Of a stretch of DNA of 37,378 nt, positions 18,995 to 36,666 are shown piece by piece (within the stretch, counting starts at the first letter, position 1; each line of letters begins with the position of its first letter). A program made the position numbers and the translations under genes. The DNA comes from an uncultured Actinomycetes bacterium (lineage in GTDB: Bacteria; Actinomycetota; Actinomycetes; S36-B12; UBA5976). The notes under the pieces were generated by a model. That model had not been told where the DNA came from. It did no database searches and saw only the letters and a list, made by a program, of their open reading frames with translations. The DNA is taken from contig CALBND010000098.1 in assembly GCA_937896305.1 (NCBI GenBank), forward strand, positions 1-37,378. Reading direction: 5' to 3'.

Positions 18995-21208
<2,214 letters not shown>

Positions 21209-23488: not shown

Positions 23489-24013
23489 TTATTTTTTACG
23501 CATTTTCAGTAAAAATGTTATCGCAACACCAATTGCTGCCCCTAAAGATAACCATTGCAACCAGTTAATACTTGACTTATTTTCCTCACCTTGCGCACTA
23601 ATTAACATCGGTTGATCATCTTGCGCAGTAATCTCTGGAGCGGATTCAACTACTTCTTCGGTAGCTAATTGAAGGGCGTAAACAACTTGTCCTTCTAGGG
23701 GATGACCATCAGAGGCAACTGTTTTGTAATTAATTATTAGTTCATTGCCTGTGATATCTGAGGCAATTGCTACATAAATATCAGCACCTTCAACTCGTAT
23801 GGTTGTTTCAAGAGAAGTTTCACCATAGGTCAGCGAAGCAAATGTTCCATCAGCAAGTATTTCTTCACCAAAAGTTAATTTAACTTCTGCAGGTAGCAAA
23901 ATTAAGCTTTGCTCGGTCGTAGGTTCGGTTGAGATTAAATCAGTGTGGGCAAGGGCTGGCAAGGCAGAAAAAAGTGAAATAAGAGTTAGCAGAATTACTC
24001 CTATTTTTTTCAT
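23489..24013 (-). CDS. CopC-domain copper-binding protein, secreted with a C-terminal membrane anchor
   Basis: 174 aa. Signal peptide ending ALA|HTD gives a mature N-terminal His. The D-x-H motif in VASDGHPLEG is the Cu(II)-site signature of CopC. Very few Met, so no Met-rich Cu(I) site. C-terminal TM helix followed by KMRKK. The ATG overlaps the TGA of the upstream GntR gene (ATGA). Confidence 0.75.
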   Translation of the reverse strand: MKKIGVILLTLISLFSALPALAHTDLISTEPTTEQSLILLPAEVKLTFGEEILADGTFASLTYGETSLETTIRVEGADIYVAIASDITGNELIINYKTVASDGHPLEGQVVYALQLATEEVVESAPEITAQDDQPMLISAQGEENKSSINWLQWLSLGAAIGVAITFLLKMRKK

Positions 24014-24747
24014 CTGGTTCTTAATATTAAAAATTGGAATCTTCCTTCAATAAAGTATGTCTTGCTGTACATCATGGGGTCACCTTCCCCTGAATAATGT
24101 ACTTGTTCTAGTAAGAGAAACAGATCATTTTTTGGTCTATCTGGACCCCAACCAATTTCTTTAGAGATAACCGCATTTAATTCAGCTAAAGCTCTAATCG
24201 GTCTGGAATTAATTGTGTCTAGTGATGCAAAGACACTGCCTGATTTCATTTGTTCCACTACTGCTTCAGAAAGGGAACTAATACTAATTGTGTCATAGGA
24301 GAAAGCAACTGGTTTTCCATCAGCTAAAACTGCACGCTCTAAATACAAAACCTGTTCAGGAAGATCTAGTTGTAATTTTTCCATTTCTTTCTCGGAAGCA
24401 TTGCGAATTTCAGAAACTTTAAATTCCATTGAAGGCGAATAGCCCATTTCGCGAATAGTTTCAGACATTGATCTAAGTTCATGTAAACCTGTCGGAATCG
24501 CTCTTCCAAAATCGTTTACATAAGTTCCTGAACCATGACGAATATCTAGTAGGCCTTGATATTCCAAAGTTTTTAAGGCAGTTCTAACGGTTACGCGTGA
24601 AACCTTATACTTCTCAGCTAATTCTGCTTCACTATTTATCTTCTCGCCCGGTGCCCATTCCTTGGCCAAAATCCGAGCCCGAATGTCGTCACTTATCTGC
24701 CTGGTCAGCGAGGCTCGACCGCCAAACTGCTCCCCACCAAGGCTCAT
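24010..24747 (-). CDS. GntR family transcriptional regulator, HutC subfamily (wHTH + UTRA effector domain)
   Basis: 245 aa. wHTH SEAELAEKYKVSRVTVRTALKTLEYQGLL and a ~150-aa C-terminal domain of UTRA type. Divergent from the mtnA-like operon. Confidence 0.85.
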   Translation of the reverse strand: MSLGGEQFGGRASLTRQISDDIRARILAKEWAPGEKINSEAELAEKYKVSRVTVRTALKTLEYQGLLDIRHGSGTYVNDFGRAIPTGLHELRSMSETIREMGYSPSMEFKVSEIRNASEKEMEKLQLDLPEQVLYLERAVLADGKPVAFSYDTISISSLSEAVVEQMKSGSVFASLDTINSRPIRALAELNAVISKEIGWGPDRPKNDLFLLLEQVHYSGEGDPMMYSKTYFIEGRFQFLILRTR

Positions 24748-24843: not shown

Positions 24844-24868
24844 ATTGACTAATCAAAGAGGGGTTTTC

Positions 24869-25900
24869 TTGAAAGAGATTCGAGCGATTTCATGGGTAAA
24901 TGACGGTTTAACTTTGATCGATCAAACAAAGCTGCCGCATCAAGAAATCAATATCGAGATTGAAACGGTTGATCAATTAGTTGACGCGATTTCAACATTG
25001 GCTGTGCGAGGCGCACCAGCATTAGGTGCAGCTGGCGCTTGGGGAATTGTTGTTGCAATGCGACAAGGGGCCAAAGAAAACTGGAGTGCAGAAAAACTTA
25101 ATGCAGAATTTTTAAGAATTAGAAATGCTCGCCCGACAGCTGTTAATTTAGCTTGGGGGGTAGACAAAGTTTTACCAGTGGTTTCATCAGGAGTTGAGGC
25201 AGTACTTGCTGCTGCAAATAAAATTGCTGCAGAAGATGAAGCAGGAAATCGAGCAATGGGAAAATTGGGCGCTGATTGGATTGAGAAAAAAGTTGCCAAC
25301 AGACCAATTAGAGCATTAACACATTGCAACACCGGCTCACTTGCAACAACAACTTGGGGAACTGCGTTGGGAGTTATTAGAGAAATTAATTCTCGAGGAA
25401 TTTTAAAACACGTGTTTGCAGATGAAACAAGACCACTTCTGCAAGGTGGAAGATTGACAGCTTGGGAATTATCACAAGATGGTATCGAACATTTCGTCAT
25501 TGCTGATGGAGCCGCAACAAGTATTATTGCTCGCGGAGAAGTTGATGTTGCATTAATTGGAGCTGATCGAGTTGCAGCAAATGGAGATACTGCAAATAAA
25601 ATTGGATCTTTTGCTGTTGCCTTAGCTTGTAAGTATGCCGGGATTCCTTTTGTTGTTGTTGCACCTGAATCAACTGTAGATATCAGTACCCCAAGTGGAA
25701 AAGAAATAGAAATTGAATTTAGAAGTGAAGATGAAATATTGAGTTTAAATGGACAGAGAATTTCACCGAAACAATCAAAAGGTTTAAATCCTGCATTTGA
25801 CGTTACCCCTGCTGAATTAATTTCTGCACTAGTTACAGAAAAAGGGGTTTATGAAATCTCAAACGGAATTATCCCCGGATCTAGGGCGGTTTTAATTTAA
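24869..25900 (+). CDS. mtnA: MtnA/eIF-2B-like family isomerase (S-methyl-5-thioribose-1-phosphate isomerase family)
   Basis: Catalytic Cys motif THCNTGSLAT and Asp motif GADRVAANGDTANKIGS, plus NPAFDVTPAELI. The ORF track starts at TTG 24845, directly abutting the palindrome. I prefer TTG 24869, which has AAAGAGGGG 5 nt upstream and gives MKEIRAISW... Confidence 0.88.
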   Translation: MKEIRAISWVNDGLTLIDQTKLPHQEINIEIETVDQLVDAISTLAVRGAPALGAAGAWGIVVAMRQGAKENWSAEKLNAEFLRIRNARPTAVNLAWGVDKVLPVVSSGVEAVLAAANKIAAEDEAGNRAMGKLGADWIEKKVANRPIRALTHCNTGSLATTTWGTALGVIREINSRGILKHVFADETRPLLQGGRLTAWELSQDGIEHFVIADGAATSIIARGEVDVALIGADRVAANGDTANKIGSFAVALACKYAGIPFVVVAPESTVDISTPSGKEIEIEFRSEDEILSLNGQRISPKQSKGLNPAFDVTPAELISALVTEKGVYEISNGIIPGSRAVLI

Positions 25901-27891
25901 TGAATACCATTCCAAAACCTCTTCAAGAACTTGTTGAAAGATCACAAGTTTTAGGAAATAATCAAGATTTTGTTGTTTATGGTGGGGGAAATACTTCTGC
26001 CAAAGGTGAAATAAAAGATCATTTCCAAAGAAATAGAAAAGTCTTATGGGTCAAAGGATCTGGTGCAGACATGATGAATGCAACTGCTCCTGATTACCCT
26101 GCCCTCTATCTTGATGAATTACTTCCACTGTTGGATTTCAACGCCATGACTGATGAAGAAATGACGGATTTAGTTGGACGAGCTCTGGTAGATCCAACTA
26201 GTAGAAGGCCTTCCATTGAAACATTGCTACACGCTTTCTTGCCCTTTAAACATATTGACCACGTACATGCTGATGCAATTTGTGCTTTAACAAATCATAA
26301 AGATGGACAAAAGGCAGTACAAGAAGCATTAGGTGATGGATTTGCTTACGTAGATTGGATTAGACCTGGTTTTGAATTAAGTAAAAAATCATCTCTGCTT
26401 GGCGATTATGAAGGAATTATTTTAGCTCATCACGGACTAATCGTTTGGGACGAAGACAGTGATGTTTGTAAAGAAAAGAATTATGAAGTAATTAGAAAAG
26501 TTGAAAAATATCTATCTTCTTTAACAAAGAGACCTGATTCAATTTTTCAACATACTGAATATAGCGATGAAGAATACCAAACATTAATGTTACAAATTCG
26601 TGGTCGCTTAAATAAAAATAGTAAAAAAATTATTGTTAATGACCCACGATTAAAAGAAACATCTACCAGAAAAGATATCCAGGAAATAGTTTCTGCAGGA
26701 GTCTCAAGTGCAGACCATATGCTGAGAATCAAACCTTGGTCTGCTGTTATTGAAAACCCTAAAGAACCAAATAGTGTTAATAATTCAATTGATAAATACG
26801 CAAAAAATTATGAGAGATACTTTGAAGAAAATAAAAACTTATTGACTCCAGGTTATTCAATGCACGATACAGATCCAAGAGTTGTAATTGTTCCTGGAAT
26901 TGGCGCAATCACTTCAGGTTTAAACACAAATGAATGCAAAATGTATTCCGATATTGCATTTCATACTCACAAAACAGCCGCAATGGCAAAAGATGCATTT
27001 AATAATGTAGAAGGTTTACCAAACTCCGAAATATTTGGTTTTGATTATTGGCCAATGGAACTTTACAAATTGGCTAGCAAACCTGCCCCTAAGAAATTCG
27101 CTGGGAGTATATTTATCGTGACCGGTGCAGGTAGTGGTATTGGGAGAGGAATTGCTCTTGATCTAGCAGAAAAAGGAGCAACTCTAGTCTTGGCAGATCT
27201 AGACGAAAAGGGTCTCAGGGATGTTGAGGCTTTGTTTAAGGAATCTAAATTTAATCGACCACTGATTGTCAGTGGGGATCAATCAGATGAAAAAGTTGTT
27301 AGTCAAACAGTTGCTGAAACAATTAATAATTTTGGTGGATTTGATGGAGTCGTTTTCAGTGCCGGAATTGCAGTCACGGATTCACTCAAAGATTTAACTC
27401 TTGCTAAGTGGAATAAAGGATTAGCCGTGAACCTAACCAGTTCTTTCTTGATGACAAAGGCTGCTCTAAGCGCGTTACGAACACAAAACTCAGGTGGGTC
27501 TTTGGTTTACATTGCAAGCAAGAACGCATTTGCCCCGGGAGCTGGATTTGGTGGCTATTCAGTAAGTAAAGCTGGAATGTTGCAATTGATGAGAATTGCC
27601 GCCCTCGAAGGTGGCGCAGAAAAAATTAGAGCAAATGCAATTAATCCAGATGCAATTTTTGATAACAGCAAACTCTGGGAAGGAGGAATCAGAGAGGAAC
27701 GCGCTAAAGCTCACGGTGTTAAACCAGAAGCATTGGAAGATTTTTATGCACAAAGAAATATTTTAAAATCACATGTTACTTCCAAAGATGTCGCCGAAAC
27801 CACAGCATTTTTACTTTCTGATGAATCTGCCAGAACCACAGGCTCGGTCATTGCCGTCGACGGCGGAGTGGCTGCTGCGTTTCCGCGCTAA
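25900..27891 (+). CDS. bifunctional class II aldolase/adducin-domain + short-chain dehydrogenase fusion (YuxG/RhaEW-like)
   Basis: 663 aa. The N-terminal ~400 aa carry a metal motif HIDHVHAD and ILAHHGLIVWDED. The C-terminal SDR has TGAGSGIGRG and YSVSK. TAATG overlap with the preceding isomerase gene. Confidence 0.85.
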   Translation: MNTIPKPLQELVERSQVLGNNQDFVVYGGGNTSAKGEIKDHFQRNRKVLWVKGSGADMMNATAPDYPALYLDELLPLLDFNAMTDEEMTDLVGRALVDPTSRRPSIETLLHAFLPFKHIDHVHADAICALTNHKDGQKAVQEALGDGFAYVDWIRPGFELSKKSSLLGDYEGIILAHHGLIVWDEDSDVCKEKNYEVIRKVEKYLSSLTKRPDSIFQHTEYSDEEYQTLMLQIRGRLNKNSKKIIVNDPRLKETSTRKDIQEIVSAGVSSADHMLRIKPWSAVIENPKEPNSVNNSIDKYAKNYERYFEENKNLLTPGYSMHDTDPRVVIVPGIGAITSGLNTNECKMYSDIAFHTHKTAAMAKDAFNNVEGLPNSEIFGFDYWPMELYKLASKPAPKKFAGSIFIVTGAGSGIGRGIALDLAEKGATLVLADLDEKGLRDVEALFKESKFNRPLIVSGDQSDEKVVSQTVAETINNFGGFDGVVFSAGIAVTDSLKDLTLAKWNKGLAVNLTSSFLMTKAALSALRTQNSGGSLVYIASKNAFAPGAGFGGYSVSKAGMLQLMRIAALEGGAEKIRANAINPDAIFDNSKLWEGGIREERAKAHGVKPEALEDFYAQRNILKSHVTSKDVAETTAFLLSDESARTTGSVIAVDGGVAAAFPR

Positions 27892-27950: not shown

Positions 27951-29051
27951 ATGAGAAGAAGTAAAAACACAGCATTAGCTGGAATTTCAGTTGTTGCTGC
28001 ATTACTTCTCGCTGCATGTTCACAAGGTGGTAGCGATACCACTGCACCTGCAGCAGATGAAGGCACTGTTACTGATACAACTGCTGCTAAACCAGCGCCA
28101 TTTGACGCAGGATTAGTAAAGATTGCAATTGTACAAAACAGTGGAGCTGGAGATTATTTCCAACAATGGACAAACGGTGCTAAGCAACAAGCTGAAGCTA
28201 TCGGTTTTGACGTGCAAATTTATGACGCACAAGCTGATAACGCTAAGCAAGCAACTGACATGGAAACAGCAATTGGTTCTGGCGTAGCTGGCATCATTGT
28301 TGATCACGGTCAAAAAGACACCATGTGTCCATTGATCAAACAAGCAACTGATGCAGGTATTCCAGTAGTTGTTTACGACGTTGCTATTAGTGACTGCGCA
28401 CCGGATGCAGTACAAACACAACAAAGTGATGCATCTCTTGCCCAAGCAGTACTAGAGCAAATGGCAAAAGATCTTGGTAAAGATCAAAAAGTTGGATACG
28501 TAAACGTATTAGGTATCGCACCTTTGGATCGTCGTCACGTTGTATGGGAAGAAATTGTTAAAGCTAACAATTGGACCCAATCATTCTTCGTTGGTAAATT
28601 CACCAACGCAGTTGCAACTGACAATGCTCAATTAGTTGACGCAGCTCTAAAAGCTAATCCAGACGTAACAGGCATTTTTGCTCCTTACGATGAATTAACT
28701 AAGGGAACTGTTTCAGCAATTGAACAAAACAACCTTCAAGGTTCAATCAAGGCATACGGAATTGATATTTCAAATGCTGACATTGAAATCATGACCAAAG
28801 AAGGAAGCCCATGGGCAGCAACAGCAGGTACTGATCCAAACGCGATTGGTGCAGCAGTTGTTAGAAACATGGCTCTTGAACTAGCAGGCCAATTGGGTGT
28901 TAAATCAGTTGACTTCCCAGGTGTTCTTATCACTGCAGCTTTCCTAAAGGAAAATGCAATCAAGAACATGGTTGACTTGCGTGCAGCATTGCCATCATTG
29001 AACTTAGCCGAAGTTAGCGCTGCTGACTGGATTCCAGCAGTTAAGTTCTAA
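27951..29051 (+). CDS. sugar ABC transporter substrate-binding lipoprotein (RbsB/periplasmic binding protein type I family)
   Basis: 366 aa. Signal peptide with lipobox LLAAC, a Thr/Ala-rich linker, then an alternating alpha/beta type I PBP pattern (IAIVQNS...GIIVDHG...). Confidence 0.85.
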   Translation: MRRSKNTALAGISVVAALLLAACSQGGSDTTAPAADEGTVTDTTAAKPAPFDAGLVKIAIVQNSGAGDYFQQWTNGAKQQAEAIGFDVQIYDAQADNAKQATDMETAIGSGVAGIIVDHGQKDTMCPLIKQATDAGIPVVVYDVAISDCAPDAVQTQQSDASLAQAVLEQMAKDLGKDQKVGYVNVLGIAPLDRRHVVWEEIVKANNWTQSFFVGKFTNAVATDNAQLVDAALKANPDVTGIFAPYDELTKGTVSAIEQNNLQGSIKAYGIDISNADIEIMTKEGSPWAATAGTDPNAIGAAVVRNMALELAGQLGVKSVDFPGVLITAAFLKENAIKNMVDLRAALPSLNLAEVSAADWIPAVKF

Positions 29052-29081
29052 GTAACAAAAAGTAAAAGAAAAGGTGAGTTA

Positions 29082-30587
29082 ATGGTTGCAGCAGTGGAAG
29101 TTAGAAATATTTCCATGGCGTTTGGGTCAAACCAAGTGTTAAGTGGAGTAGATCTAATTATTGACAAAGGTCAAACAACCGCATTGTTAGGTGCTAATGG
29201 TGCGGGGAAATCCACTTTGATAAAAGTTTTATCCGGTGTTTATTCTTCCTTTACCGGAGAAATAATTATCGATGGTAAATCTGCAACTATTGACTCACCA
29301 ATTACTGCCAGAGCTTCTGGCATCGAAACAGTTCATCAAAGAATTGATGAAGGAGTAATCCCTGGTTTAACAGTTGCTGAAAATTTACTATTTGAACGAA
29401 TTGTCACAGGAGATGTGCCTAATCGCGTTTCACTAAAAACAATTGTTGAGAAAGCTGTAGAAATTGCAGCAGCACTAGATTTAAATTGGAATAAATCAAA
29501 GCTTAGAAGTGATGTTTACGAATTGGGAATAGCTGAACAGCAATTATTGATATTAGCCAGAGCACTTTCTCGCTCTCCCAAACTACTTATTTTAGATGAA
29601 CCAACATCAGCCCTTTCTGCATCAGAAAGTCAGAATTTATTTAAAGTTGTGAAAAATTTGCAAGATAAAGGTATTGCCATTCTCTATGTCTCACATAAAT
29701 TAAGTGAATTAGATCAAATTGCTAACAATCTAGTTGTGATTCGCGATGGGAAAATTAGAAATGAACAAAAAACACCTTTTAGTTGGGATCAGGCGCTGAA
29801 AGAAATGTTAGGCCAACAAATAGTTGGCCAAAGACAAGAAATTTCATCATTAGCAAGTGGCAAGGTTGCTTTGGAGCTAAAAGGAGTCAAACTTTTACCA
29901 GAAAGTGAGCCCATTAATTTATCTTTAAGAAAAAATGAAGTAACTGGTGTAATTGGTCTATTGGGTGCTGGAAAAACAGAATTAGCAAAAATTATTTATG
30001 GTGCTGAAAAAATTCTTGAAGGCGAAATGTTATTTGAAAATAAGAAATACCAACCATCTCATCCTGCAGAAGCCGTGGCAAAAGATATCTATCTAGTTCC
30101 TGAGGATCGAGCAGCAGAATCGATGATTCCTGCTTGGAGCATTTCTGAAACTGCAACTTTGCCTTTTATGGGCAATTTTTCAGCACGGGGAATTATTAAA
30201 AAAGCAGCAGAATTTATTCGAGGAAAACAACTGGTGGAAGATTTGAAAGTTATAACTACTTCGCATTTAGCTCAAGTTGATTCCTTATCGGGTGGTAATC
30301 AACAAAAAGTGGTTGTGGGTAGATGGCTACAATCCACACCTAAAATAATGATTTTGGACGAACCATTTCGAGGAGTCGATATTGGGGCTCGAAGGGATAT
30401 TTCAAAACGAGTTAGGGATTTAGCTGCAACAGATGTTGCAGTTTTAGTTTTAGCATCTGATGTTGATGAAATATTGGATGTCGCAGATCGGATAATTGTT
30501 CTAGTTGAGGGGAAGATAGTGATGGACGAAATATCAAGTAAGACTTCCAAAGAATTAATTGTCAACAAAATGTCGGAGGTGGCATAA
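29082..30587 (+). CDS. sugar ABC transporter ATP-binding protein (tandem ABC domains, RbsA-like)
   Basis: 501 aa. Walker A GANGAGKST and GLLGAGKTE, signature LSGGNQQKV in the second domain, Walker B ILDEP twice. Confidence 0.9.
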   Translation: MVAAVEVRNISMAFGSNQVLSGVDLIIDKGQTTALLGANGAGKSTLIKVLSGVYSSFTGEIIIDGKSATIDSPITARASGIETVHQRIDEGVIPGLTVAENLLFERIVTGDVPNRVSLKTIVEKAVEIAAALDLNWNKSKLRSDVYELGIAEQQLLILARALSRSPKLLILDEPTSALSASESQNLFKVVKNLQDKGIAILYVSHKLSELDQIANNLVVIRDGKIRNEQKTPFSWDQALKEMLGQQIVGQRQEISSLASGKVALELKGVKLLPESEPINLSLRKNEVTGVIGLLGAGKTELAKIIYGAEKILEGEMLFENKKYQPSHPAEAVAKDIYLVPEDRAAESMIPAWSISETATLPFMGNFSARGIIKKAAEFIRGKQLVEDLKVITTSHLAQVDSLSGGNQQKVVVGRWLQSTPKIMILDEPFRGVDIGARRDISKRVRDLAATDVAVLVLASDVDEILDVADRIIVLVEGKIVMDEISSKTSKELIVNKMSEVA

Positions 30588-31616
30588 ATGAGTACCGCAA
30601 AACTAAGTAACTTAGCCAATTATGATTTAAGGCAATTCACAGTTAAATATGGATTCATTGTTGTAACTGTGGTGCTCTTCTTATGGTTTGCTTTAACTGA
30701 ACCTTCATTTAGAATGGAATCAACATTGTTTTCAATGTTGAAATTTACTTCTGTAGTAGCCATCACTGGTCTTGGAGTAACTATGACAATGGTGGTCGGC
30801 GGACTTGATCTTTCTGTTGGATCGATTGCAGGGTTATCTGTAACACTTTCTGCGATGACTATGGTTATTTATGCTCAAACTGGTGCAGTTGCTTTAATAG
30901 TTGTTTTATTAGGTGGAGCGTTAGTCGGATTGTTTAATGCCTTCTTAATTGTGGTACTAAAAATTCCTGATCTCTTAGCAACCTTGGCTACAATGTTTAC
31001 AATCATGGGATTGAAACTTGTTCCAGTAGATGGACAGTCTGTTTCTTCAGGATTAATTTTACGAGATGGCAGTGTTGCTCCAGGAAAATTTACTCCAGGA
31101 TTTTTATTAATTGACCGAGCCTACATAGGGCCTGTTCCACTTCCTGTCGCCATATTTTTTGGATTAGCTTTTTTCGTTTGGTTTTTCTTGACCAGAACTA
31201 GATGGGGCAGAGTTATGTATGCAATTGGTTCAAATCCAGAAGCTGCCAGGCTTGCAGGGGTAAGAGTAAAAAGATATCGTGCTTTGGCCTACATTATGTC
31301 TGGTGTATTTGCTTCAATTGGTGGATTGATTTTGTCTTCTCGTATTGGTCAAGGAGACATCAGTGCCGGAAACTCACTTCTGCTAGACGCTGTGGCAGTT
31401 TCTTTAGTCGGAACTTCTGTATTAGGTATGGCAAGACCAAATGCTTGGGGAACAATATTAGGAGCAGTTTTAATTGGTATTGTGATCACTGGCTTAACTA
31501 TTAAAGGATTTCCTTATTACGCCCAAGATGTCGTGAAGGGCTTAGTCTTATTGACAGCTTTGATTTTCTCCTTTACTTTATCGAGGAGAAAAACTAAATT
31601 CGTACCTGCAGTTTAG
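30588..31616 (+). CDS. ABC transporter permease (RbsC/branched-chain sugar permease family)
   Basis: 342 aa, about 9-10 hydrophobic helices, GGLDLSVGS motif typical of RbsC-type permeases. Its start immediately follows the ATPase stop. Confidence 0.88.
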   Translation: MSTAKLSNLANYDLRQFTVKYGFIVVTVVLFLWFALTEPSFRMESTLFSMLKFTSVVAITGLGVTMTMVVGGLDLSVGSIAGLSVTLSAMTMVIYAQTGAVALIVVLLGGALVGLFNAFLIVVLKIPDLLATLATMFTIMGLKLVPVDGQSVSSGLILRDGSVAPGKFTPGFLLIDRAYIGPVPLPVAIFFGLAFFVWFFLTRTRWGRVMYAIGSNPEAARLAGVRVKRYRALAYIMSGVFASIGGLILSSRIGQGDISAGNSLLLDAVAVSLVGTSVLGMARPNAWGTILGAVLIGIVITGLTIKGFPYYAQDVVKGLVLLTALIFSFTLSRRKTKFVPAV

Positions 31617-31629
31617 AAAAGGAGATAAT

Positions 31630-32856
31630 GTGGCTGAAGAATATGAATTTTTATCAAAAGATAATATTTCAAGTTATTTATCAAGCAAAGCGGTCTTTTC
31701 TAAATTAATTGATTCGCAAAACATTGTTGTATTCAAAGAAGTTGGGGACGGTAATTTAAATCTCGTTTTTATTATGAAAGACAATAAAGGAAAAGGAATT
31801 GTCTTAAAGCAAGCACTTCCTTATGTACGACTTGTGGGACCAGATTGGCCCATGACACCAACCAGGGCTCGCATAGAAGCTGAAACAACAATTGCGCATT
31901 CAAAGTATGCAAAAGATTTAGTTCCAGAAATTTATGATTACGATGAATCTCGTTACATTATTGCGATGGAAGACTTATCTGATCATGTTGTTTGGCGAGG
32001 AGCGCTAAATGAAGGATTTCAATTTGAAGGTGTAGCTGGACCACTTGGAACCTATGTTGCAAAAACTGGTTTTGGAACTTCAGTTTTTACACTAGGACAA
32101 GAAACTCACAAACTAGAATTGGCTCGAGCAATTAATCCAGGATTATGTTTAATCACAGAAGATCTAGTATTCTCTGAACCATATTTTGAAAATGGAAGAA
32201 ATTCATTTCTTCCAGCAAATGAAATTGATGCAAAAGAATTGGCAAATGATTCAGATATGGTTAGAGAAATTGGAATATTGAAATATAAATTCATGACAAC
32301 TTCTGAAAGCTTAATTCATGGAGATTTACACACAGGTTCAGTAATGATTAAAGCTGAAGATAAACAATCAGCTATCAGCATTAAAGCAATCGATTCTGAA
32401 TTTGCTTTCTATGGTCCACTGGCCTTTGATCTAGGTGCTCTAATGGCAAATTATGTGATTGCAGCTGCGAGATTTTGCGCACTTGGCAAGATAGAACAGA
32501 TGCAATGGGCACTTGGACTGCCTGAACAAACCTGGGTTGCTTTTGAAAAGGAAATTCGAGCCCTTTGGCCAACTCGGGTTGATAAACGCGTATTTAACGA
32601 TGAGTTTTTGGAAGTTTTGTTGAAAACTTGGCGGGAAGACGCTTTGGGATTTACTGGTGCAAAAATGGCCAGAAGAATTGTTGGACTAGCTAAAACAACC
32701 GATATTGAAACCTTGGAACCAAATCTTCGTGAAGGTGCTGCTCGTGGGGTGCTACGAGCCGCTCGCATGATTACTAAAACCAGAAAACAAGTTAAAACTT
32801 GGGCGGACATTGCTAATGAAACAAAAGCAATTTTAACTTCAGCGGCAACAAAATAA
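31630..32856 (+). CDS. mtnK: MtnK family kinase (S-methyl-5-thioribose kinase family)
   Basis: 408 aa, GTG start after AAGGAG. EVGDGNLNLVF, KQALPYVRLVGPDWPMTPTRARIEAE and HGDLHTGSV are close matches to the Bacillus MtnK signature motifs. Confidence 0.88.
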   Translation: MAEEYEFLSKDNISSYLSSKAVFSKLIDSQNIVVFKEVGDGNLNLVFIMKDNKGKGIVLKQALPYVRLVGPDWPMTPTRARIEAETTIAHSKYAKDLVPEIYDYDESRYIIAMEDLSDHVVWRGALNEGFQFEGVAGPLGTYVAKTGFGTSVFTLGQETHKLELARAINPGLCLITEDLVFSEPYFENGRNSFLPANEIDAKELANDSDMVREIGILKYKFMTTSESLIHGDLHTGSVMIKAEDKQSAISIKAIDSEFAFYGPLAFDLGALMANYVIAAARFCALGKIEQMQWALGLPEQTWVAFEKEIRALWPTRVDKRVFNDEFLEVLLKTWREDALGFTGAKMARRIVGLAKTTDIETLEPNLREGAARGVLRAARMITKTRKQVKTWADIANETKAILTSAATK

Positions 32857-32865
32857 GGAGAAATT

Positions 32866-33225
32866 ATGAAAACACCTCGTGAAATAGCAGAATCATATTG
32901 GAAAGCAGAATGCGCTAGAGACACTGCAGCTGTTTTAAGCCACTATCATCAGGATGCAGTTTTTTGTCCACCTGGACAAGAGTTAAAAGGTCACGAACAA
33001 ATTGCTACGTTTTATGATGCTTCAGGTGAATCATTTCCTGGACTAAAAGTTGAAATATTGCATGAAGTCAGAAATGGTGATGAAAGTTGTCTTGAATGGT
33101 ATGCAACATTGACTGATAAAAATGGGAATGTATTTAATATTCCGGGAGTAAATGTAATTAAGATTAGAGATGAAAAATTTGAATCTGTTCACGCATACTT
33201 TGATCCGACTGTATTAAACGCTTAA
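32866..33225 (+). CDS. SnoaL-like / NTF2-fold small protein of unknown function
   Basis: 119 aa with strong AAGGAG Shine-Dalgarno. The N-terminal helix plus ...YHQDAVF..P... pattern and size match the SnoaL/ketosteroid-isomerase-like cone fold. It is the last gene of the plus-strand operon. Confidence 0.6.
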   Translation: MKTPREIAESYWKAECARDTAAVLSHYHQDAVFCPPGQELKGHEQIATFYDASGESFPGLKVEILHEVRNGDESCLEWYATLTDKNGNVFNIPGVNVIKIRDEKFESVHAYFDPTVLNA

Positions 33226-34325
33226 CCTTCTATTTTATCTACAATATTTCTTAGACTTTTAGCATTCTCAAGTAAGTTACCTCGGTGTAGCGCTCCACCG
33301 ATTAAAAACACGGTGTCATTGCCAAAGAAGTTAATTATTTCTGAAATTCTTTCAATCGTCATCCCACCACCAGGACTTGGCCAAATTGTTTTAATTTCAC
33401 CTAGTTGACTTCTACATGTATCAGCTATCTTTGTGCATTCATCTTTTGAAAAACTAAACCTGCCACCATAATTTGGAAACACAGAAATATCTGCTCCAGC
33501 TAAACGCATTAATGTGGCTAGAACAATTTCATGATTTATTCCATGATTTTTGCTCATAAAATGTGATCCAAGCATTGAAGGGTGACTCATGATTGGTAGA
33601 GCAATTTCATCGTTATCTGCAATTGCTCTCATAGTGTCAAAACCTGAAACTCCCGGTAGCACCATTAATGCACCACTACCTAACTGTGCTGCTCTGATTG
33701 CAGAATCAATAATTTGATCTGCAGGAAGATTGACACTGGGAGCGTAAACAGATTTAGTGCCAAATTTTTCATTAGCTTCATTAACGGCACTAGCAATAAT
33801 TTTGACGCGATCTTCCCAAAGCGCCCAAGGCTGATTGGCCAAACTGTGATCATCTTTTATTAGGTCGATCCCTGCTTCAACCATCACCACAGCTATTTGA
33901 GCCATTTCTTTTGCACTCAACCCCATTGGTTTTAAGGCAGTTGCCAATATGGGGCGATTTTTAATCCCAAAGTATTCACGTAAACCACTTATCCCAAATC
34001 TTGGTCCTTTAAATACAGCTAGTTGATCTTGTTCAAGCTCTATGTCAACTACTCGCACATCCGGAAACATCGAAACATTGCCCCATAAAACATTTAAGAG
34101 CTGGGGAAGTTCATTTCCGGTTATACCTACGTTGTAATCAATTTCTAAAAGAGAGCGATTGTTTGCTAGTGAATTTAAGTTAACGACTTGACCCACAACT
34201 TCATTTTGAATCCAAGTTGGAGCTAATTCAATGGGAAATTCTATTGTTTGTTCAACTCTGATGGCTTCAGCAACTTCTTTGGCAGAATCAGTATTTAATT
34301 CATAACTTATTCTAAAAGTACTCAT
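33222..34325 (-). CDS. RuBisCO-like protein (form IV RLP), short divergent type
   Basis: 367 aa. By-eye alignment to the RuBisCO large subunit: LKPMGLSAKE vs IKPKLGLSAKN, IDLIKDDHSLANQPW vs LDFTKDDENVNSQPF, IMSHPSM vs HIHRAMH, PSPGGGM vs VASGGIH, LIGGALH vs FGGGTLGH, and N-domain GNV retained. Confidence 0.85.
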   Translation of the reverse strand: MSTFRISYELNTDSAKEVAEAIRVEQTIEFPIELAPTWIQNEVVGQVVNLNSLANNRSLLEIDYNVGITGNELPQLLNVLWGNVSMFPDVRVVDIELEQDQLAVFKGPRFGISGLREYFGIKNRPILATALKPMGLSAKEMAQIAVVMVEAGIDLIKDDHSLANQPWALWEDRVKIIASAVNEANEKFGTKSVYAPSVNLPADQIIDSAIRAAQLGSGALMVLPGVSGFDTMRAIADNDEIALPIMSHPSMLGSHFMSKNHGINHEIVLATLMRLAGADISVFPNYGGRFSFSKDECTKIADTCRSQLGEIKTIWPSPGGGMTIERISEIINFFGNDTVFLIGGALHRGNLLENAKSLRNIVDKIEG

Positions 34326-34330
34326 AACTA

Positions 34331-35344
34331 TTACAGAGCTTCTGCTTTAGCGGTGCTATGTACGTCGATGACTCTGGTTTGTGATAACTCTTCTTCAGAT
34401 ATTTTAAGATCTTTATCCATTAATTTTTCTGTTGCTTCAATTAAACTTCTGGCACCCAATCCATATTTTTGTAACAAGTATTTTTGAGATGCACCATGTG
34501 CGTAAGTATCTTTAAGTCCAATTTTTATGAGTTTCTTGCCAATGCCATGTTCAGCCATTAAATCAGCTACAGCACTACCCAGTCCACCTATTACGCTGTG
34601 ATTTTCCATGGAAATAATTCCATGTTTAGCTGATTTTAAACTTTCAATAACTTGCGGATCGTCGAATGGCTTTAATGTTGAAATATGTAAATGCTGCACA
34701 GAAACACCATGTTCTTGCAAGGCAGGTATGGCACGCAGTGCTTCTTCTGTAGAAATACCAGAACTGATTACAGTTACATCGAAACCATTACTCAAAACTC
34801 TTGCTTGGTTAAATTGCATGGCTTCTGCTTTAGGAAAAATACGAGAAACTTCACCGCGCAGCATTCTTATGTAAACTGGGCCATCAATTTTGTGGGCTAC
34901 ATCTAATACCGATTCGACTTCGGTAGCGTCTCCGGTTTCCAAAATTGTCATGTTTGGAACGCCTCTTAAAGCATTAATGTCATCTATTGCTTGATGAGTA
35001 ACTCCTCCTGGGGTGGTGATTCCTGGCAAAAAGCCCACAAATCGAACTGGAAGATTTGGGTAAGCCACTGATAAATGAAGTTGATCAAATGGTCGACGGT
35101 AAAGAAATACAGCAAAAGTGTGCAGCCATGGTTCAAAACCTTCTCGAGCTAATCCAGCTGCAAAGGAAACCATATTTTGTTCAGCCATACCCATTGAGAT
35201 GTATCTCTCTGGGTAAATATCACGCCATTTACCAACTTCACATGAATTAGTTAAATCAGCTGTGACTACCAAAACTTTTGGTTTATCTTTGCTCCAATTA
35301 ATAAAGTTTTCAACATGTGGTCTATTTACAATTTCGTATCCCAT
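34331..35344 (-). CDS. transketolase family protein, C-terminal (pyrimidine-binding + C-terminal domain) subunit
   Basis: 337 aa. Catalytic-Glu region ISMGMAEQNMVSFAAGLA, then HTFAVF. Its ATG abuts the TAA of the N-terminal subunit gene (TAAATG). Confidence 0.88.
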   Translation of the reverse strand: MGYEIVNRPHVENFINWSKDKPKVLVVTADLTNSCEVGKWRDIYPERYISMGMAEQNMVSFAAGLAREGFEPWLHTFAVFLYRRPFDQLHLSVAYPNLPVRFVGFLPGITTPGGVTHQAIDDINALRGVPNMTILETGDATEVESVLDVAHKIDGPVYIRMLRGEVSRIFPKAEAMQFNQARVLSNGFDVTVISSGISTEEALRAIPALQEHGVSVQHLHISTLKPFDDPQVIESLKSAKHGIISMENHSVIGGLGSAVADLMAEHGIGKKLIKIGLKDTYAHGASQKYLLQKYGLGARSLIEATEKLMDKDLKISEEELSQTRVIDVHSTAKAEAL

Positions 35345-36247
35345 TTAAACCCAAGCCTCCAAAAATTCTTTGTACTTTTCCCGCTCAGCTGGACTTGAAA
35401 AACGTACATAATGCAAAGTTGGTGCTCGCTCTTGCAAGATTGGAATATCTCTTATGGGATCGGTGTAGCAAAGAATTATCTTTGGCTTATCTGTTTTTGC
35501 AGTTCCAGCAGCAAAAATTTCATCAATACTATTTCCATCTACAACCGATACGTCCCAACCAAAACTTTCAACTCTTTGTTTAAGTGGTTCAATAGACATA
35601 ACGCTTTCCATCGGCCCATCACATTGGTTTTTATTGACATCAACAATAACTTTTAGATTGTCTAATTTGTGATAACTAGAAGCAGCTAAGGCTTCCCAAG
35701 TTTGACCTTCTTGGAATTCTCCATCAGACATGAAAACCCAAACATTTCCAGTTTCTTTTTTAAATTTGCGAGCCATGGCAACTCCGCTTGCTTGGGAAAG
35801 TGCTTGAGCGAGTGAACCTGTGGTGGTTTCAAATCCAGGGGAGTGCTCAGCACCTATCATTTCAACAGTTGATCCATCTTTATTAAATTTTTCTAAAGAA
35901 CTCTCACTTAATCTTTTTGTTTCAATCAAAGCTGCATAAATGACTAGGGCATAATGAGCAGGGCTCATGAAAATTCGATCTAACTCTGGACCCTGCCGGC
36001 CGTGAAATTCTGCACCCGTGACATAACTTTTAAAAGTTTCACTAGGTACCCCCAAGAACGGTCTTGGATCTAAAGGCTTTTCCAGTGGTGTGATTTTTGC
36101 TAAACCACCATAAAGGCTGGCCAAAATTTCAGCAGCCGAACAAGCTTGGCTTAAATAACCACCGTTATTTAAAACAGTGTGTTCTAATACTCGACGTCTT
36201 ATGCCGTGGGCAATGGCCTCTACTTCGGCTTTGTTCTCAATTGTCAT
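35345..36247 (-). CDS. transketolase, N-terminal (thiamine diphosphate-binding) subunit
   Basis: 300 aa. GGYLSQACSAAEILASLY, SPAHYA, and a ThDP motif variant SDGEFQEGQTWEA...VDVNKN. Confidence 0.88.
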   Translation of the reverse strand: MTIENKAEVEAIAHGIRRRVLEHTVLNNGGYLSQACSAAEILASLYGGLAKITPLEKPLDPRPFLGVPSETFKSYVTGAEFHGRQGPELDRIFMSPAHYALVIYAALIETKRLSESSLEKFNKDGSTVEMIGAEHSPGFETTTGSLAQALSQASGVAMARKFKKETGNVWVFMSDGEFQEGQTWEALAASSYHKLDNLKVIVDVNKNQCDGPMESVMSIEPLKQRVESFGWDVSVVDGNSIDEIFAAGTAKTDKPKIILCYTDPIRDIPILQERAPTLHYVRFSSPAEREKYKEFLEAWV

Positions 36248-36366: not shown

Positions 36367-36666
36367 TTATCCAGCTATTGGCATTGGTGCTTTAACTGGG
36401 GCATAGATGGTTTCGCGATCATCTTCACTCATCGCACCCCACACCCCATAAGGTTCACGAACCGCTAGGGCATGTTCAGCACATTGACGAAGAACTGGGC
36501 AGGTGGCACAAATTGACTTGGCCAATGCGATCCTGTTCTCGCGGGCTGGGCCACGCTCACCTTCGGGATGAAAGAAAATCTCAGGATCTTCCCCACGGCA
36601 AGCACCTTTCAACTGCCAGTCCCAAATATCAGCATTTGGACCGGGCAATCTTGAGATATCAGCCAT
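36367..36666 (-). CDS. whiB: WhiB family [4Fe-4S] transcription factor (WhiB3/WhiD-like)
   Basis: 99 aa. LPGPNADIWDWQLKGACRG...FFHPEGERG...CATCPVLRQCAEHAL...PYGVWGA. Four Cys in the WhiB pattern, and an N-terminus very close to the mycobacterial WhiB3 pattern LPGPNADIWNWQ. Confidence 0.92.
   Translation of the reverse strand: MADISRLPGPNADIWDWQLKGACRGEDPEIFFHPEGERGPARENRIALAKSICATCPVLRQCAEHALAVREPYGVWGAMSEDDRETIYAPVKAPMPIAG

What the first reader, a model, noticed from the sequence alone, without database searches (positions are those of the whole stretch)
33222..34325. Short (367 aa) RuBisCO-like protein with an unusual active-site pattern (KDDH, K177 lost, R295P)
By-eye alignment against the form I large subunit (spinach numbering) gives the following.

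Retained:
- Lys175 (LKPM)
- the carbamylatable Lys201 and Asp203 (IKDDH)
- His294 (SHPS)
- the C-terminal phosphate-binding glycines (PGGG, IGGA)
- Asn123 (WGNV)

Changed:
- Lys177 is lost. KPKLG becomes KPMG, with a one-residue deletion.
- Metal ligand Glu204 is His.
- Arg295 is Pro.
- The His327 position is not His (region ISVFPN).
- Lys334 is Arg.
- The N-domain E-x-x-TGTW motif is replaced by VEQTIEFP.

The N-terminal domain is also about 20-40 residues shorter than in typical RuBisCO or RLP sequences. This pattern rules out carboxylase chemistry. The KDDH metal site in particular does not look like the KDDE retained in the characterised MtnW, DeepYkr and Photo RLPs as I recall them. The gene is translationally coupled to a split transketolase, with 5 nt between stop and start and no separate Shine-Dalgarno.
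Basis: partly seen in the sequence, partly recalled or inferred. Interest (0 to 1): 0.8.

Follow-up and report, generated by a model that had tools for sequence, protein, structure and literature searches.

The report
DeepYkr-type RuBisCO-like isomerase with dedicated transketolase
The gene encodes a RuBisCO-like sugar-phosphate isomerase of an already characterised type, so its odd active site is normal for its family, but it is almost always joined to an altered two-piece transketolase, which points to an undescribed branch of methylthioribose/5-deoxyribose salvage in abundant freshwater bacteria.

Summary
ORF 33222-34325(-) is a 367-aa RuBisCO-like protein (RLP), and a MAFFT alignment to spinach RbcL reproduces every residue call: K175, K201, D203, H294, N123 and E60 are kept; K177→M, E204→H, R295→P, H327→V, K334→R.

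The same pattern is in PDB 3qfw, the Rhodopseudomonas palustris RLP that is not rlp2. It is also the signature of about 100 family representatives. Their usual partner is a cupin, fused or adjacent, as in the DeepYkr MTRu-1-P 1,3-isomerase pathway.

What looks new is the partner here. TK-N/TK-C/RLP is a conserved operon: 68 of 70 metagenome loci with room, plus Thermotoga profunda. It sits among mtnK, mtnA, a sugar ABC transporter and an aldolase-dehydrogenase fusion.

This transketolase always carries H26Y, H100M/L, H461F and D469G, but keeps the ThDP site and most of the phosphate site. H100→hydrophobic is the known TK→DXP-synthase switch for 1-deoxy donors.

Best model: MtnK→MtnA→RLP (1,3-isomerase)→TK-like cleavage of 1-methylthio- or 1-deoxy-xylulose-5-P to GAP plus a C2 unit. 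The transketolase replaces the cupin. I found no paper describing this.

The parts
33222..34325 (-). RuBisCO-like protein (367 aa), DeepYkr type. Predicted 5-methylthio-/5-deoxy-ribulose-1-P 1,3-isomerase.
   Evidence: Pfam RuBisCO_large. Best PDB hit 3qfw. Signature E25/N83/K132/K157/D159/H160/H248/P249/R289. AF2 model pLDDT 93.9.
34326..34330 (-). 5-nt spacer between the TK-C stop and the RLP start (translational coupling).
   Evidence: read directly. In 64 of 70 related loci the RLP begins within 200 bp downstream of TK-C on the same strand.
34331..35344 (-). Transketolase-like C-terminal subunit (Pyr and TKC domains). It has H461F and D469G (E. coli TktA numbering). R358, S385, E411, H473 and R520 are kept.
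   Evidence: Best PDB hit 6yaj (split TK, 2.4e-60). F461 and G469 in 80/80 loci.
35345..36247 (-). Transketolase-like N-terminal subunit (PP domain). It has H26Y, H100M and a ~27-residue insertion. H66, G114, L116, D155, G156 and N185 are kept.
   Evidence: Y26 in 67/67 loci and M/L100 in 67/67.
32866..33225 (+). SnoaL/NTF2-like 119-aa protein, last gene of the + operon. Its stop overlaps the RLP stop by 4 nt. A recurrent accessory gene of unknown role.
   Evidence: SnoaL_2 6e-16; it lies between mtnK and TK-N in L015, L022, L033 and L041.
31630..32856 (+). MtnK, 5-methylthioribose (or 5-deoxyribose) kinase.
   Evidence: TIGR01767 378 bits, above the 275 cut-off.
27951..31616 (+). Sugar ABC transporter: binding protein 27951-29051, ATPase 29082-30587, permease 30588-31616.
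   Evidence: The same transporter-mtnK block recurs next to TK-RLP.
25900..27891 (+). Class II aldolase / short-chain dehydrogenase fusion. Probable DHAP-shunt-type cleavage branch.
   Evidence: NF006190 567 bits and TIGR02632 524 bits, both below cut-off. Present in 19 of 80 TK-RLP loci.
24845..25900 (+). MtnA, 5-methylthioribose-1-P (or 5-deoxyribose-1-P) isomerase. It supplies the RLP substrate.
   Evidence: TIGR00512 413 bits, above the 279 cut-off. Present in 21 of 80 TK-RLP loci.
24010..24747 (-). GntR-family regulator, divergent from mtnA.
   Evidence: Recurs in 9 of 80 loci.

Best explanation
The ORF encodes a catalytically intact RuBisCO-like protein of the short DeepYkr type. Its most likely reaction is the one shown for the R. 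rubrum and R. palustris RLP1 enzymes. That is a 1,3-proton-transfer isomerisation of the MtnA product: 5-methylthio-ribulose-1-P, and by analogy 5-deoxy-ribulose-1-P, becomes 1-methylthio-xylulose-5-P (or 1-deoxy-xylulose-5-P).

In the known pathway a cupin methylsulfurylase takes this product. Here, and in most of this clade, the next enzyme is a dedicated split ThDP enzyme derived from transketolase. Its pocket for the donor C1-hydroxyl has become hydrophobic (H100M/L, together with H26Y, D469G and H461F). Its distal phosphate site is largely kept.

I infer that this enzyme cleaves the C2-C3 bond of the 1-substituted xylulose-5-P. That releases glyceraldehyde-3-P and leaves a ThDP-bound C2 unit. 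How the C2 unit is resolved is open. It could leave as (methylthio)acetaldehyde or acetaldehyde. It could lose methanethiol by beta-elimination, giving an acetyl unit. Or it could be transferred to an acceptor.

The whole route would be: ABC import, then MtnK, MtnA, RLP, then the TK-like enzyme. In this window it runs alongside an aldolase-dehydrogenase (DHAP-shunt-like) branch.

Shown here: homology, the residue pattern, operon linkage and the transketolase substitutions.

Inferred: the substrates, the order of steps and the fate of the C2 unit.
For: RLP type:
- 3qfw (R. palustris RLP, not rlp2) is the best sequence and fold match and shares all diagnostic residues.
- R. palustris RLP1 (DeepYkr) is an experimentally shown MTRu-1-P 1,3-isomerase whose neighbour is the cupin (PMC5893883).
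- Many of the closest family representatives are RLP-cupin fusions. The nearest relative of 3qfw has a cupin immediately downstream.
- The signature is invariant in 62/62 TK-linked RLPs, which argues for an active enzyme.

Pathway context:
- mtnK and mtnA pass their equivalog cut-offs.
- Thermotoga profunda (WP_041083670.1) has one co-directional operon: SBP-ATPase-permease-MtnK-MtnA-TKN-TKC-RLP, with no aldolase and no cupin.
- 64 of 70 metagenome loci with room have the RLP within 200 bp downstream of this TK-C, and 4 more have it nearby.
- mtnA, mtnK, the transporter, a nucleoside phosphorylase and an amidohydrolase recur around the trio.
- The TK trio also occurs with more distant RLP subclades: P0124, P0125 and P0133.

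Transketolase specialisation:
- Y26, M/L100, F461 and G469 are universal. The ThDP and metal motifs, E411, H473, R358, S385 and R520 are kept.
- The canonical split TK of C. hydrogenoformans has H/H/H/D at those four positions.
- PMC7661550 states that His100 is the donor-binding residue consistently replaced by Phe in DXP synthase. It also reports that H100F and H100L give a transketolase activity with the 1-deoxy donor pyruvate.
Against: - No biochemistry exists for any TK-linked member.
- The R. rubrum reference sequence and the other form IV clades (GOS, AMC, Aful) were not in my tree. Its deep nodes are star-like NJ branches without support values. Strict DeepYkr membership, as against a sister clade, is therefore not proven.
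- Identity to 3qfw is only 36%.
- The window RLP has a 6-residue segment (HFMSKN) that 3qfw lacks.
- The window also encodes an aldolase able to consume the same MtnA product, so the need for a second branch is unexplained.
- H461F and D469G could equally mean a hydrophobic acceptor or donor tail rather than a 5-phosphate.
- Two TK loci have no RLP hit in the DNA held (L070, L093).
- The fate of the C2-ThDP intermediate is speculation.
Confidence: 0.6

Rival explanations
1. The RLP catalyses a different, still uncharacterised reaction on another sugar phosphate. The transketolase-like enzyme would then be an ordinary ketol transferase in a new deoxy-sugar catabolic route. The DeepYkr-like residues would only reflect shared ancestry.
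For: - Only 36% identity to 3qfw.
- The partner enzyme differs: TK instead of cupin.
- An extra 6-residue segment next to the H294 region.
- RLP clades are known to differ in function, for example the apiose-pathway RLPs mentioned in PMC6302742.
Against: - All active-site positions match the characterised type.
- MtnK and MtnA score as equivalogs, and MtnA directly abuts TK-RLP in several loci.
- The TK has lost exactly the residue that reads the donor C1-OH, so it is not an ordinary ketol transferase.
Confidence: 0.2
2. The transketolase-like enzyme acts first or in parallel. It would cleave 5-X-ribulose-1-P directly, or use the aldolase-derived aldehyde as acceptor. The RLP would then work on a product of that reaction.
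For: - PMC8102628 cites a proposed transketolase-type cleavage of 5-deoxyribulose-1-P in M. jannaschii.
- H461F and D469G make the distal pocket more hydrophobic, which would suit a CH3 or CH2SCH3 tail.
Against: - R358, S385 and R520 (distal phosphate site) are kept.
- H100M/L makes the C1 pocket hydrophobic, which does not suit a C1-phosphate.
- Ribulose has the wrong C3 configuration for transketolase donors (established TK stereochemistry).
- The characterised RLP substrate is the MtnA product.
Confidence: 0.1
3. It is a MtnW-type 2,3-diketo-5-methylthiopentyl-1-P enolase of the classical methionine salvage pathway.
For: The best NCBIfam models are MtnW models (222 and 162 bits). MtnW structures are strong fold matches.
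Against: - The scores are far below the cut-offs of 409 and 514.
- The position of the MtnW catalytic Lys (spinach N123) is Asn, and KDDE is KDDH.
- No mtnB, mtnX or mtnD was identified among the window ORFs scanned.
- In the NJ tree the family branches apart from the MtnW sequences.
Confidence: 0.03
4. One reading: this is a new RLP clade with an unprecedented metal site (KDDH), unlike any characterised RLP.
For: The residue calls themselves are correct.
Against: KDDH, no K177, P295 and R334 are present in the solved R. palustris RLP 3qfw and in about 80-95% of family representatives.
Confidence: 0.04
5. It is a decayed or non-catalytic RuBisCO relic.
For: Several carboxylase residues are lost.
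Against: - The remaining active-site residues are invariant in 62/62 orthologues.
- The fold is confidently predicted (pLDDT 93.9).
- The operon is conserved across phyla.
Confidence: 0.02

Closest known systems
DeepYkr RLP (RLP1) of Rhodospirillum rubrum and Rhodopseudomonas palustris: 5-methylthioribulose-1-P 1,3-isomerase of the MTA-isoprenoid shunt. Structure 3qfw.
   Same: - Short ~370-aa fold.
- The same active-site pattern: E60, N123, K175, K201, D203, H204, H294, P295, V/I327, R334.
- Linked to mtnA-type genes.
- Best sequence and fold match.
   Different: - 36% identity only.
- The downstream partner is a specialised split transketolase, not the cupin MTXu-5-P methylsulfurylase.
- The feed is MtnK plus an ABC importer, rather than the MtnP (MTA phosphorylase) described for the known pathway in PMC5893883.
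- The host is a low-GC freshwater actinobacterium.
MtnW / YkrW RLP (DK-MTP-1-P enolase; 2oek, 2zvi, 4nas)
   Same: - Sister clade in the NJ tree.
- P at position 295.
- Similar fold (TM about 0.9).
- Methionine-salvage context.
   Different: - Lys at the N123 position, and KDDE.
- About 40 residues longer.
- The NCBIfam cut-offs are not reached.
Canonical and split transketolase (E. coli TktA; C. hydrogenoformans 6yak/6yaj)
   Same: - Two-subunit PP plus Pyr/TKC architecture.
- ThDP and metal motifs, E411, H473, R358, S385 and R520.
   Different: - H26Y, H100M/L, H461F and D469G.
- A ~27-residue insertion in the N subunit.
- Obligate linkage to an RLP.
1-Deoxy-D-xylulose-5-P synthase (DXS)
   Same: - A hydrophobic residue at the TK-His100 position, meaning a methyl-bearing (1-deoxy) C2-ThDP intermediate (PMC7661550).
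- The TK-C subunit is about as similar to DXS as to human TK.
   Different: - Split genes.
- The TK_N Pfam match is much stronger than the DXP_synthase_N match.
- The predicted direction is cleavage, not decarboxylative synthesis.
DHAP shunt (MtnK/MtnP-MtnA-Ald2) for MTA and 5'-deoxyadenosine salvage
   Same: - The same first two steps.
- The same logic: a triose phosphate plus a C2 aldehyde.
- An aldolase branch is present in this very window.
   Different: - Cleavage would be ThDP-dependent, after an RLP isomerisation.
- It would yield GAP rather than DHAP.

Membership tests
DeepYkr-type RLP (MTRu-1-P 1,3-isomerase) | Closest to R. rubrum / R. palustris RLP1 rather than to the YkrW, Photo or NonPhoto RLPs. 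| tested here: met
   phmmer bits: 3qfw 224, against 4nas 164, 2oek 149, 1tel 119, 2qyg 114 and 3nwr 76. Lowest rmsd to 3qfw (1.7 A). Caveat: R. rubrum and the GOS, AMC and Aful references were absent, and the NJ tree has no support values.
DeepYkr-type RLP (MTRu-1-P 1,3-isomerase) | The active-site pattern of the solved or characterised member. | tested here: met
   Identical classes at positions 60, 123, 175, 201, 203, 204, 294, 295, 327 and 334 in the window protein and in 3qfw. This is the family consensus.
DeepYkr-type RLP (MTRu-1-P 1,3-isomerase) | Genomic partnership with the cupin MTXu-5-P methylsulfurylase. | tested here: not met
   No cupin was found among the scanned window ORFs. 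The partner is TK-N/TK-C. Cupin fusion or adjacency is seen in other family members.
DeepYkr-type RLP (MTRu-1-P 1,3-isomerase) | Association with genes that make MTRu-1-P (mtnA with mtnP or mtnK). | tested here: met
   mtnA and mtnK are in the window and in many related loci.
DeepYkr-type RLP (MTRu-1-P 1,3-isomerase) | Catalyses the 1,3-isomerisation of MTRu-1-P. | not testable with these tools
   Needs an enzyme assay.
MtnW/YkrW enolase | Catalytic Lys at the N123 position, a KDDE metal site, and a score above the NCBIfam equivalog cut-off. | tested here: not met
   Asn83 and KDDH. 222 bits against a 409 cut-off, and 162 against 514.
Bona fide RuBisCO (forms I-III) | K177, E204, R295, H327 and K334 (loop 6). 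| tested here: not met
   M, H, P, V and R at these positions. Rubisco_III model 143 bits against a 497 cut-off.
OiaX/OiaC apiose-pathway RLPs | Score above the NCBIfam NF042437 cut-off. | tested here: not met
   90 bits against a 700 cut-off.
Canonical transketolase (partner genes) | Substrate-contacting His26, His100, His461 and Asp469. | tested here: not met
   Y, M/L, F and G in 67-80 of 67-80 loci. All NCBIfam transketolase scores are below cut-off.
Canonical transketolase (partner genes) | ThDP/Mg binding (GDG..N, E411, F434/F437) and the PP/Pyr/TKC domain set. | tested here: met

The most novel reading that the evidence does not exclude
The RLP and the altered split transketolase together form a third, undescribed exit from methylthioribose / 5-deoxyribose salvage, a 'GAP shunt'. 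The RLP turns the MtnA product into a 1-substituted xylulose-5-P. A ThDP enzyme with a DXS-like hydrophobic donor pocket then splits it into GAP and a C2-ThDP adduct. That adduct expels methanethiol in a phosphoketolase-like beta-elimination, or releases the aldehyde. This would give genome-streamlined freshwater Nanopelagicales a way to harvest reduced sulfur and carbon from imported methylthioribose. They are reported to depend on reduced sulfur, but that rests on my recollection and was not checked here.
Probability: 0.3. Interest if true: 0.8.

Novelty: new variant of a known kind. Interest (0 to 1): 0.6.

Why it matters
The RLP on its own adds little. It is a new member of a family whose chemistry and structure are already known.

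The conserved RLP-transketolase operon is a different matter:
- It would define a new ThDP-dependent step in the recycling of S-adenosylmethionine by-products.
- It would assign a function to a widespread transketolase paralogue now annotated generically.
- It would give a natural example of the H100/H26/D469 substitutions that enzyme engineers introduce to make transketolase accept non-hydroxylated substrates.
- It could explain how some of the most abundant freshwater bacteria scavenge sulfur and carbon from methylthioribose or 5-deoxyribose.

All of this is directly testable with four recombinant proteins.

Tried and rejected
- **Genome scan.** The genome-contig scan with the single protein returned only 4 close Nanopelagicales loci.
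- **Papers not held.** The key primary papers (Imker 2008, Erb 2012, Tabita 2007, Warlick 2012) are not in the library. The DeepYkr residue table and the R. rubrum sequence could therefore not be checked directly. I relied on 3qfw and PMC5893883.
- **Literature searches.** Searches for RLP + transketolase, DHAP shunt + transketolase, mtnK + transketolase, methylsulfurylase + transketolase and Nanopelagicales + RuBisCO-like found no description of this pairing. Absence from this library does not prove absence.
- **Assignments rejected on residues and cut-offs:** MtnW enolase, carboxylase and OiaX for the RLP, and canonical transketolase for the partner.
- **Cupin in the window.** None was found among the ORFs scanned. 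Not every ORF was scanned.
- **His261.** The His261 equivalent of the TK-N subunit could not be aligned with confidence. A conserved (L/F)H(Y/S) near the C-terminus is the probable counterpart.
- **Composition.** GC is uniform at about 39%, so nothing points to recent transfer.
Full report
**1. Observation**

The ORF at 33222-34325 (minus strand, ATG, 367 aa) is real. It matches Pfam RuBisCO_large at 6.5e-27. An identical protein is on record on 5 public contigs.

It proved 100% identical to PDB 1ir1_A. I aligned it with the window protein, four RLP structures and about 100 family representatives (MAFFT L-INS-i). Every residue call is reproduced:
- Kept: K175=K132, K201=K157, D203=D159, H294=H248, N123=N83, G381=G321 and G403/404=G343/344.
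- Changed: K177→M134 (with the one-residue deletion), E204→H160, R295→P249, H327→V282, K334→R289 and S379→G319.
- E60 is actually retained (E25).

The protein is short at both ends. The 5-nt gap to the upstream transketolase gene is as described.

**2. The pattern is not unusual**

The best solved relative is 3qfw (E 2.6e-65 over the full length; 36% identity). Foldseek on a confident AF2 model (pLDDT 93.9) describes it as 'Rubisco-like protein from Rhodopseudomonas palustris'. It has the lowest rmsd of the matches listed (1.7 A) and TM 0.93.

2qyg is the other R. palustris RLP, rlp2 of the Photo clade. PMC5893883 states that R. palustris has exactly two RLPs. It shows that RLP1 (DeepYkr, RPA2169, next to cupin RPA2170) catalyses the MTRu-1-P 1,3-isomerisation in vivo and in vitro. 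3qfw is therefore the RLP1 type.

3qfw has the same residues as the window protein at all diagnostic positions: K175, Q177, K201, D203, H204, H294, P295, V327, R334.

A full HMMER scan of 1.84 billion cluster representatives found 297 relatives below 1e-30. Among 105 full-length representatives the counts are E60 98, N123 95, K175 103, K201 104, D203 104, H204 86 (Q in 15), H294 104, P295 102 and R334 98. KDDH is thus the hallmark of this short-RLP family.

In an NJ tree rooted on spinach RbcL the family branches apart from the MtnW/YkrW sequences. MtnW differs in having Lys at the N123 position and KDDE. The NCBIfam MtnW, form III and OiaX models all score far below their cut-offs.

**3. Family partners**

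Seven of ten long relatives scanned are RLP-cupin fusions. The representative nearest to 3qfw has a cupin gene overlapping its 3' end. This matches the known RLP-to-cupin (MTXu-5-P methylsulfurylase) pathway.

Fused members are scattered over the tree. The window protein therefore lies inside a family whose default downstream enzyme acts on the RLP1 product.

**4. Context in the window**

Upstream on the plus strand lie, in order:
- a divergent GntR regulator;
- mtnA (TIGR00512, 413 bits against a 279 cut-off);
- a class II aldolase / SDR fusion;
- a sugar ABC transporter;
- mtnK (TIGR01767, 378 bits against a 275 cut-off);
- a SnoaL-like gene.

Converging on these are TK-N, TK-C and the RLP. 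The genome is about 39% GC and carries WhiB. The closest homologues are labelled Nanopelagicales.

**5. The RLP-transketolase trio is conserved**

It recurs in the following places:
- A Nanopelagicales MAG, next to an amidohydrolase, a PNP-family phosphorylase and a cytidine deaminase.
- Loci L006 and L007, which hold the TK-C-sized upstream gene and the RLP because each locus is cut at one end.
- A 5.2-Mb genome.
- A locus whose RLP is only 40% identical to the window's.
- Thermotoga profunda (WP_041083670.1). There a single operon reads SBP-ATPase-permease-MtnK-MtnA-TKN-TKC-RLP, followed by a regulator, with neither aldolase nor cupin.

Scanning metagenomes with an alignment of four TK-C subunits returned 80 loci. 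Of the 70 with at least 600 bp of room, 64 have the RLP within 200 bp downstream on the same strand. Four more have it nearby, and two have none.

Recurrent layouts are MtnA-AldSDR-TKN-TKC-RLP, SBP-ABC-permease-MtnK-SnoaL-TKN-TKC-RLP and MtnA-MtnK-TKN-TKC-RLP.

**6. The transketolase is specialised**

I used E. coli TktA numbering.

The RLP-linked enzymes carry H26Y, H100M/L, H461F and D469G, plus a ~27-residue insertion. They keep H66, G114, L116, D155, G156, N185, E411, F434, F437, H473, S385 and R520 almost invariably, and R358 in 72 of 80. These hold in four genomes from three lineages. They also hold in 67/67 TK-N and 80/80 TK-C metagenome sequences.

The closest solved enzyme, the active split transketolase of C. 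hydrogenoformans, has the canonical H/H/H/D.

PMC7661550 records that His100 is a donor-binding residue, and that it is consistently Phe in DXP synthase. It also records that H100F and H100L confer activity with pyruvate, a donor that lacks the C1 hydroxyl.

From my own knowledge, not checked here: His100 and His473 bind the donor C1-OH, His26 and His261 bind C3-OH, Asp469 binds C4-OH, and Arg358, Ser385, His461 and Arg520 bind the phosphate. H26Y and D469 variants are classic engineered changes for non-hydroxylated substrates.

A hydrophobic C1 pocket with a retained distal phosphate site fits a donor such as 1-deoxy- or 1-methylthio-xylulose-5-P. That is exactly the product of the DeepYkr isomerase.

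**7. Model and its limits**

The proposed route is import, MtnK, MtnA, RLP (1,3-isomerase), then ThDP-dependent C2-C3 cleavage to GAP plus a C2 adduct. The transketolase takes the place of the cupin.

The T. profunda operon shows that these enzymes alone could form a complete route to central metabolism.

Three points are not established: the substrates, the order of the two steps, and the fate of the C2-ThDP intermediate (aldehyde release, methanethiol elimination or transfer). Why the window also has an aldolase branch is unexplained.

Strict clade membership needs a supported tree with all form IV references, which I could not assemble because the key papers are not held.

**8. Novelty**

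The RLP's active site is already explained, so the RLP itself is a new member of a known kind.

I found no paper that links an RLP with a transketolase. The operon is therefore best described as a new variant of the known MTA / 5-deoxyribose salvage shunts. It is widespread in freshwater Actinobacteria and present in at least Thermotogota. It is readily testable in vitro.

Noticed in passing
window 32866-33225 (+): A SnoaL/NTF2-like 119-aa gene follows mtnK. Its stop codon overlaps the convergent RLP stop by 4 nt. In four metagenome loci (L015, L022, L033, L041) the same gene lies co-directionally between mtnK and TK-N, so it may be an accessory enzyme of the pathway, for example an isomerase or epimerase.
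   Followed up: partly
window 19049-21208 (+): A full-length katG catalase-peroxidase (TIGR00198, 1189 bits) in a Nanopelagicales-like genome. To my recollection, cultured members of this group are noted for lacking catalase.
   Followed up: no
window 25900-27891 (+): A class II aldolase fused to a short-chain dehydrogenase, just below the cut-off of the rhamnulose-1-P aldolase/dehydrogenase model. It directly follows mtnA, with the start and stop sharing a base. It is probably a DHAP-shunt-like branch with a built-in aldehyde-processing domain. It is present in 19 of 80 TK-RLP loci.
   Followed up: partly
P0126, P0129, P0136, P0137, P0150, P0155, P0159; P0185: Many family members are RLP-cupin fusion proteins of 520-785 aa. 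One is an inositol-monophosphatase-RLP fusion. Several long forms (P0130, P0139) carry N-terminal extensions of about 200-270 residues with no Pfam match.
   Followed up: partly
L004 5361-7854; L059, L060, L068, L072, L079: Divergent from TK-N in several Nanopelagicales loci lies an amidohydrolase plus a PNP-family phosphorylase, and in L004 also a cytidine deaminase. This suggests a deaminase/phosphorylase entry from MTA or 5'-deoxyadenosine in place of MtnK.
   Followed up: partly
L070, L093: Two loci carry the variant transketolase (GCYLSQ, VEMIGAEHSPG, GFLPGITTPGG in L093) with no RLP hit in the DNA held. L093 is from a high-GC organism.
   Followed up: partly
L096 (P0141): A family RLP sits next to ThiF/rhodanese, SrpI-like, cysteine-desulfurase-like and DUF4395 genes. 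This is a sulfur-transfer context with neither cupin nor transketolase.
   Followed up: no
L068 10428-10943: A second, weak (32%) RLP-like tblastn hit lies a few kb downstream of the TK-RLP operon.
   Followed up: no
window 36367-36666 (-): A WhiB-family regulator lies directly upstream of TK-N on the same strand. The same adjacency is seen in L019 (81% identity).
   Followed up: no
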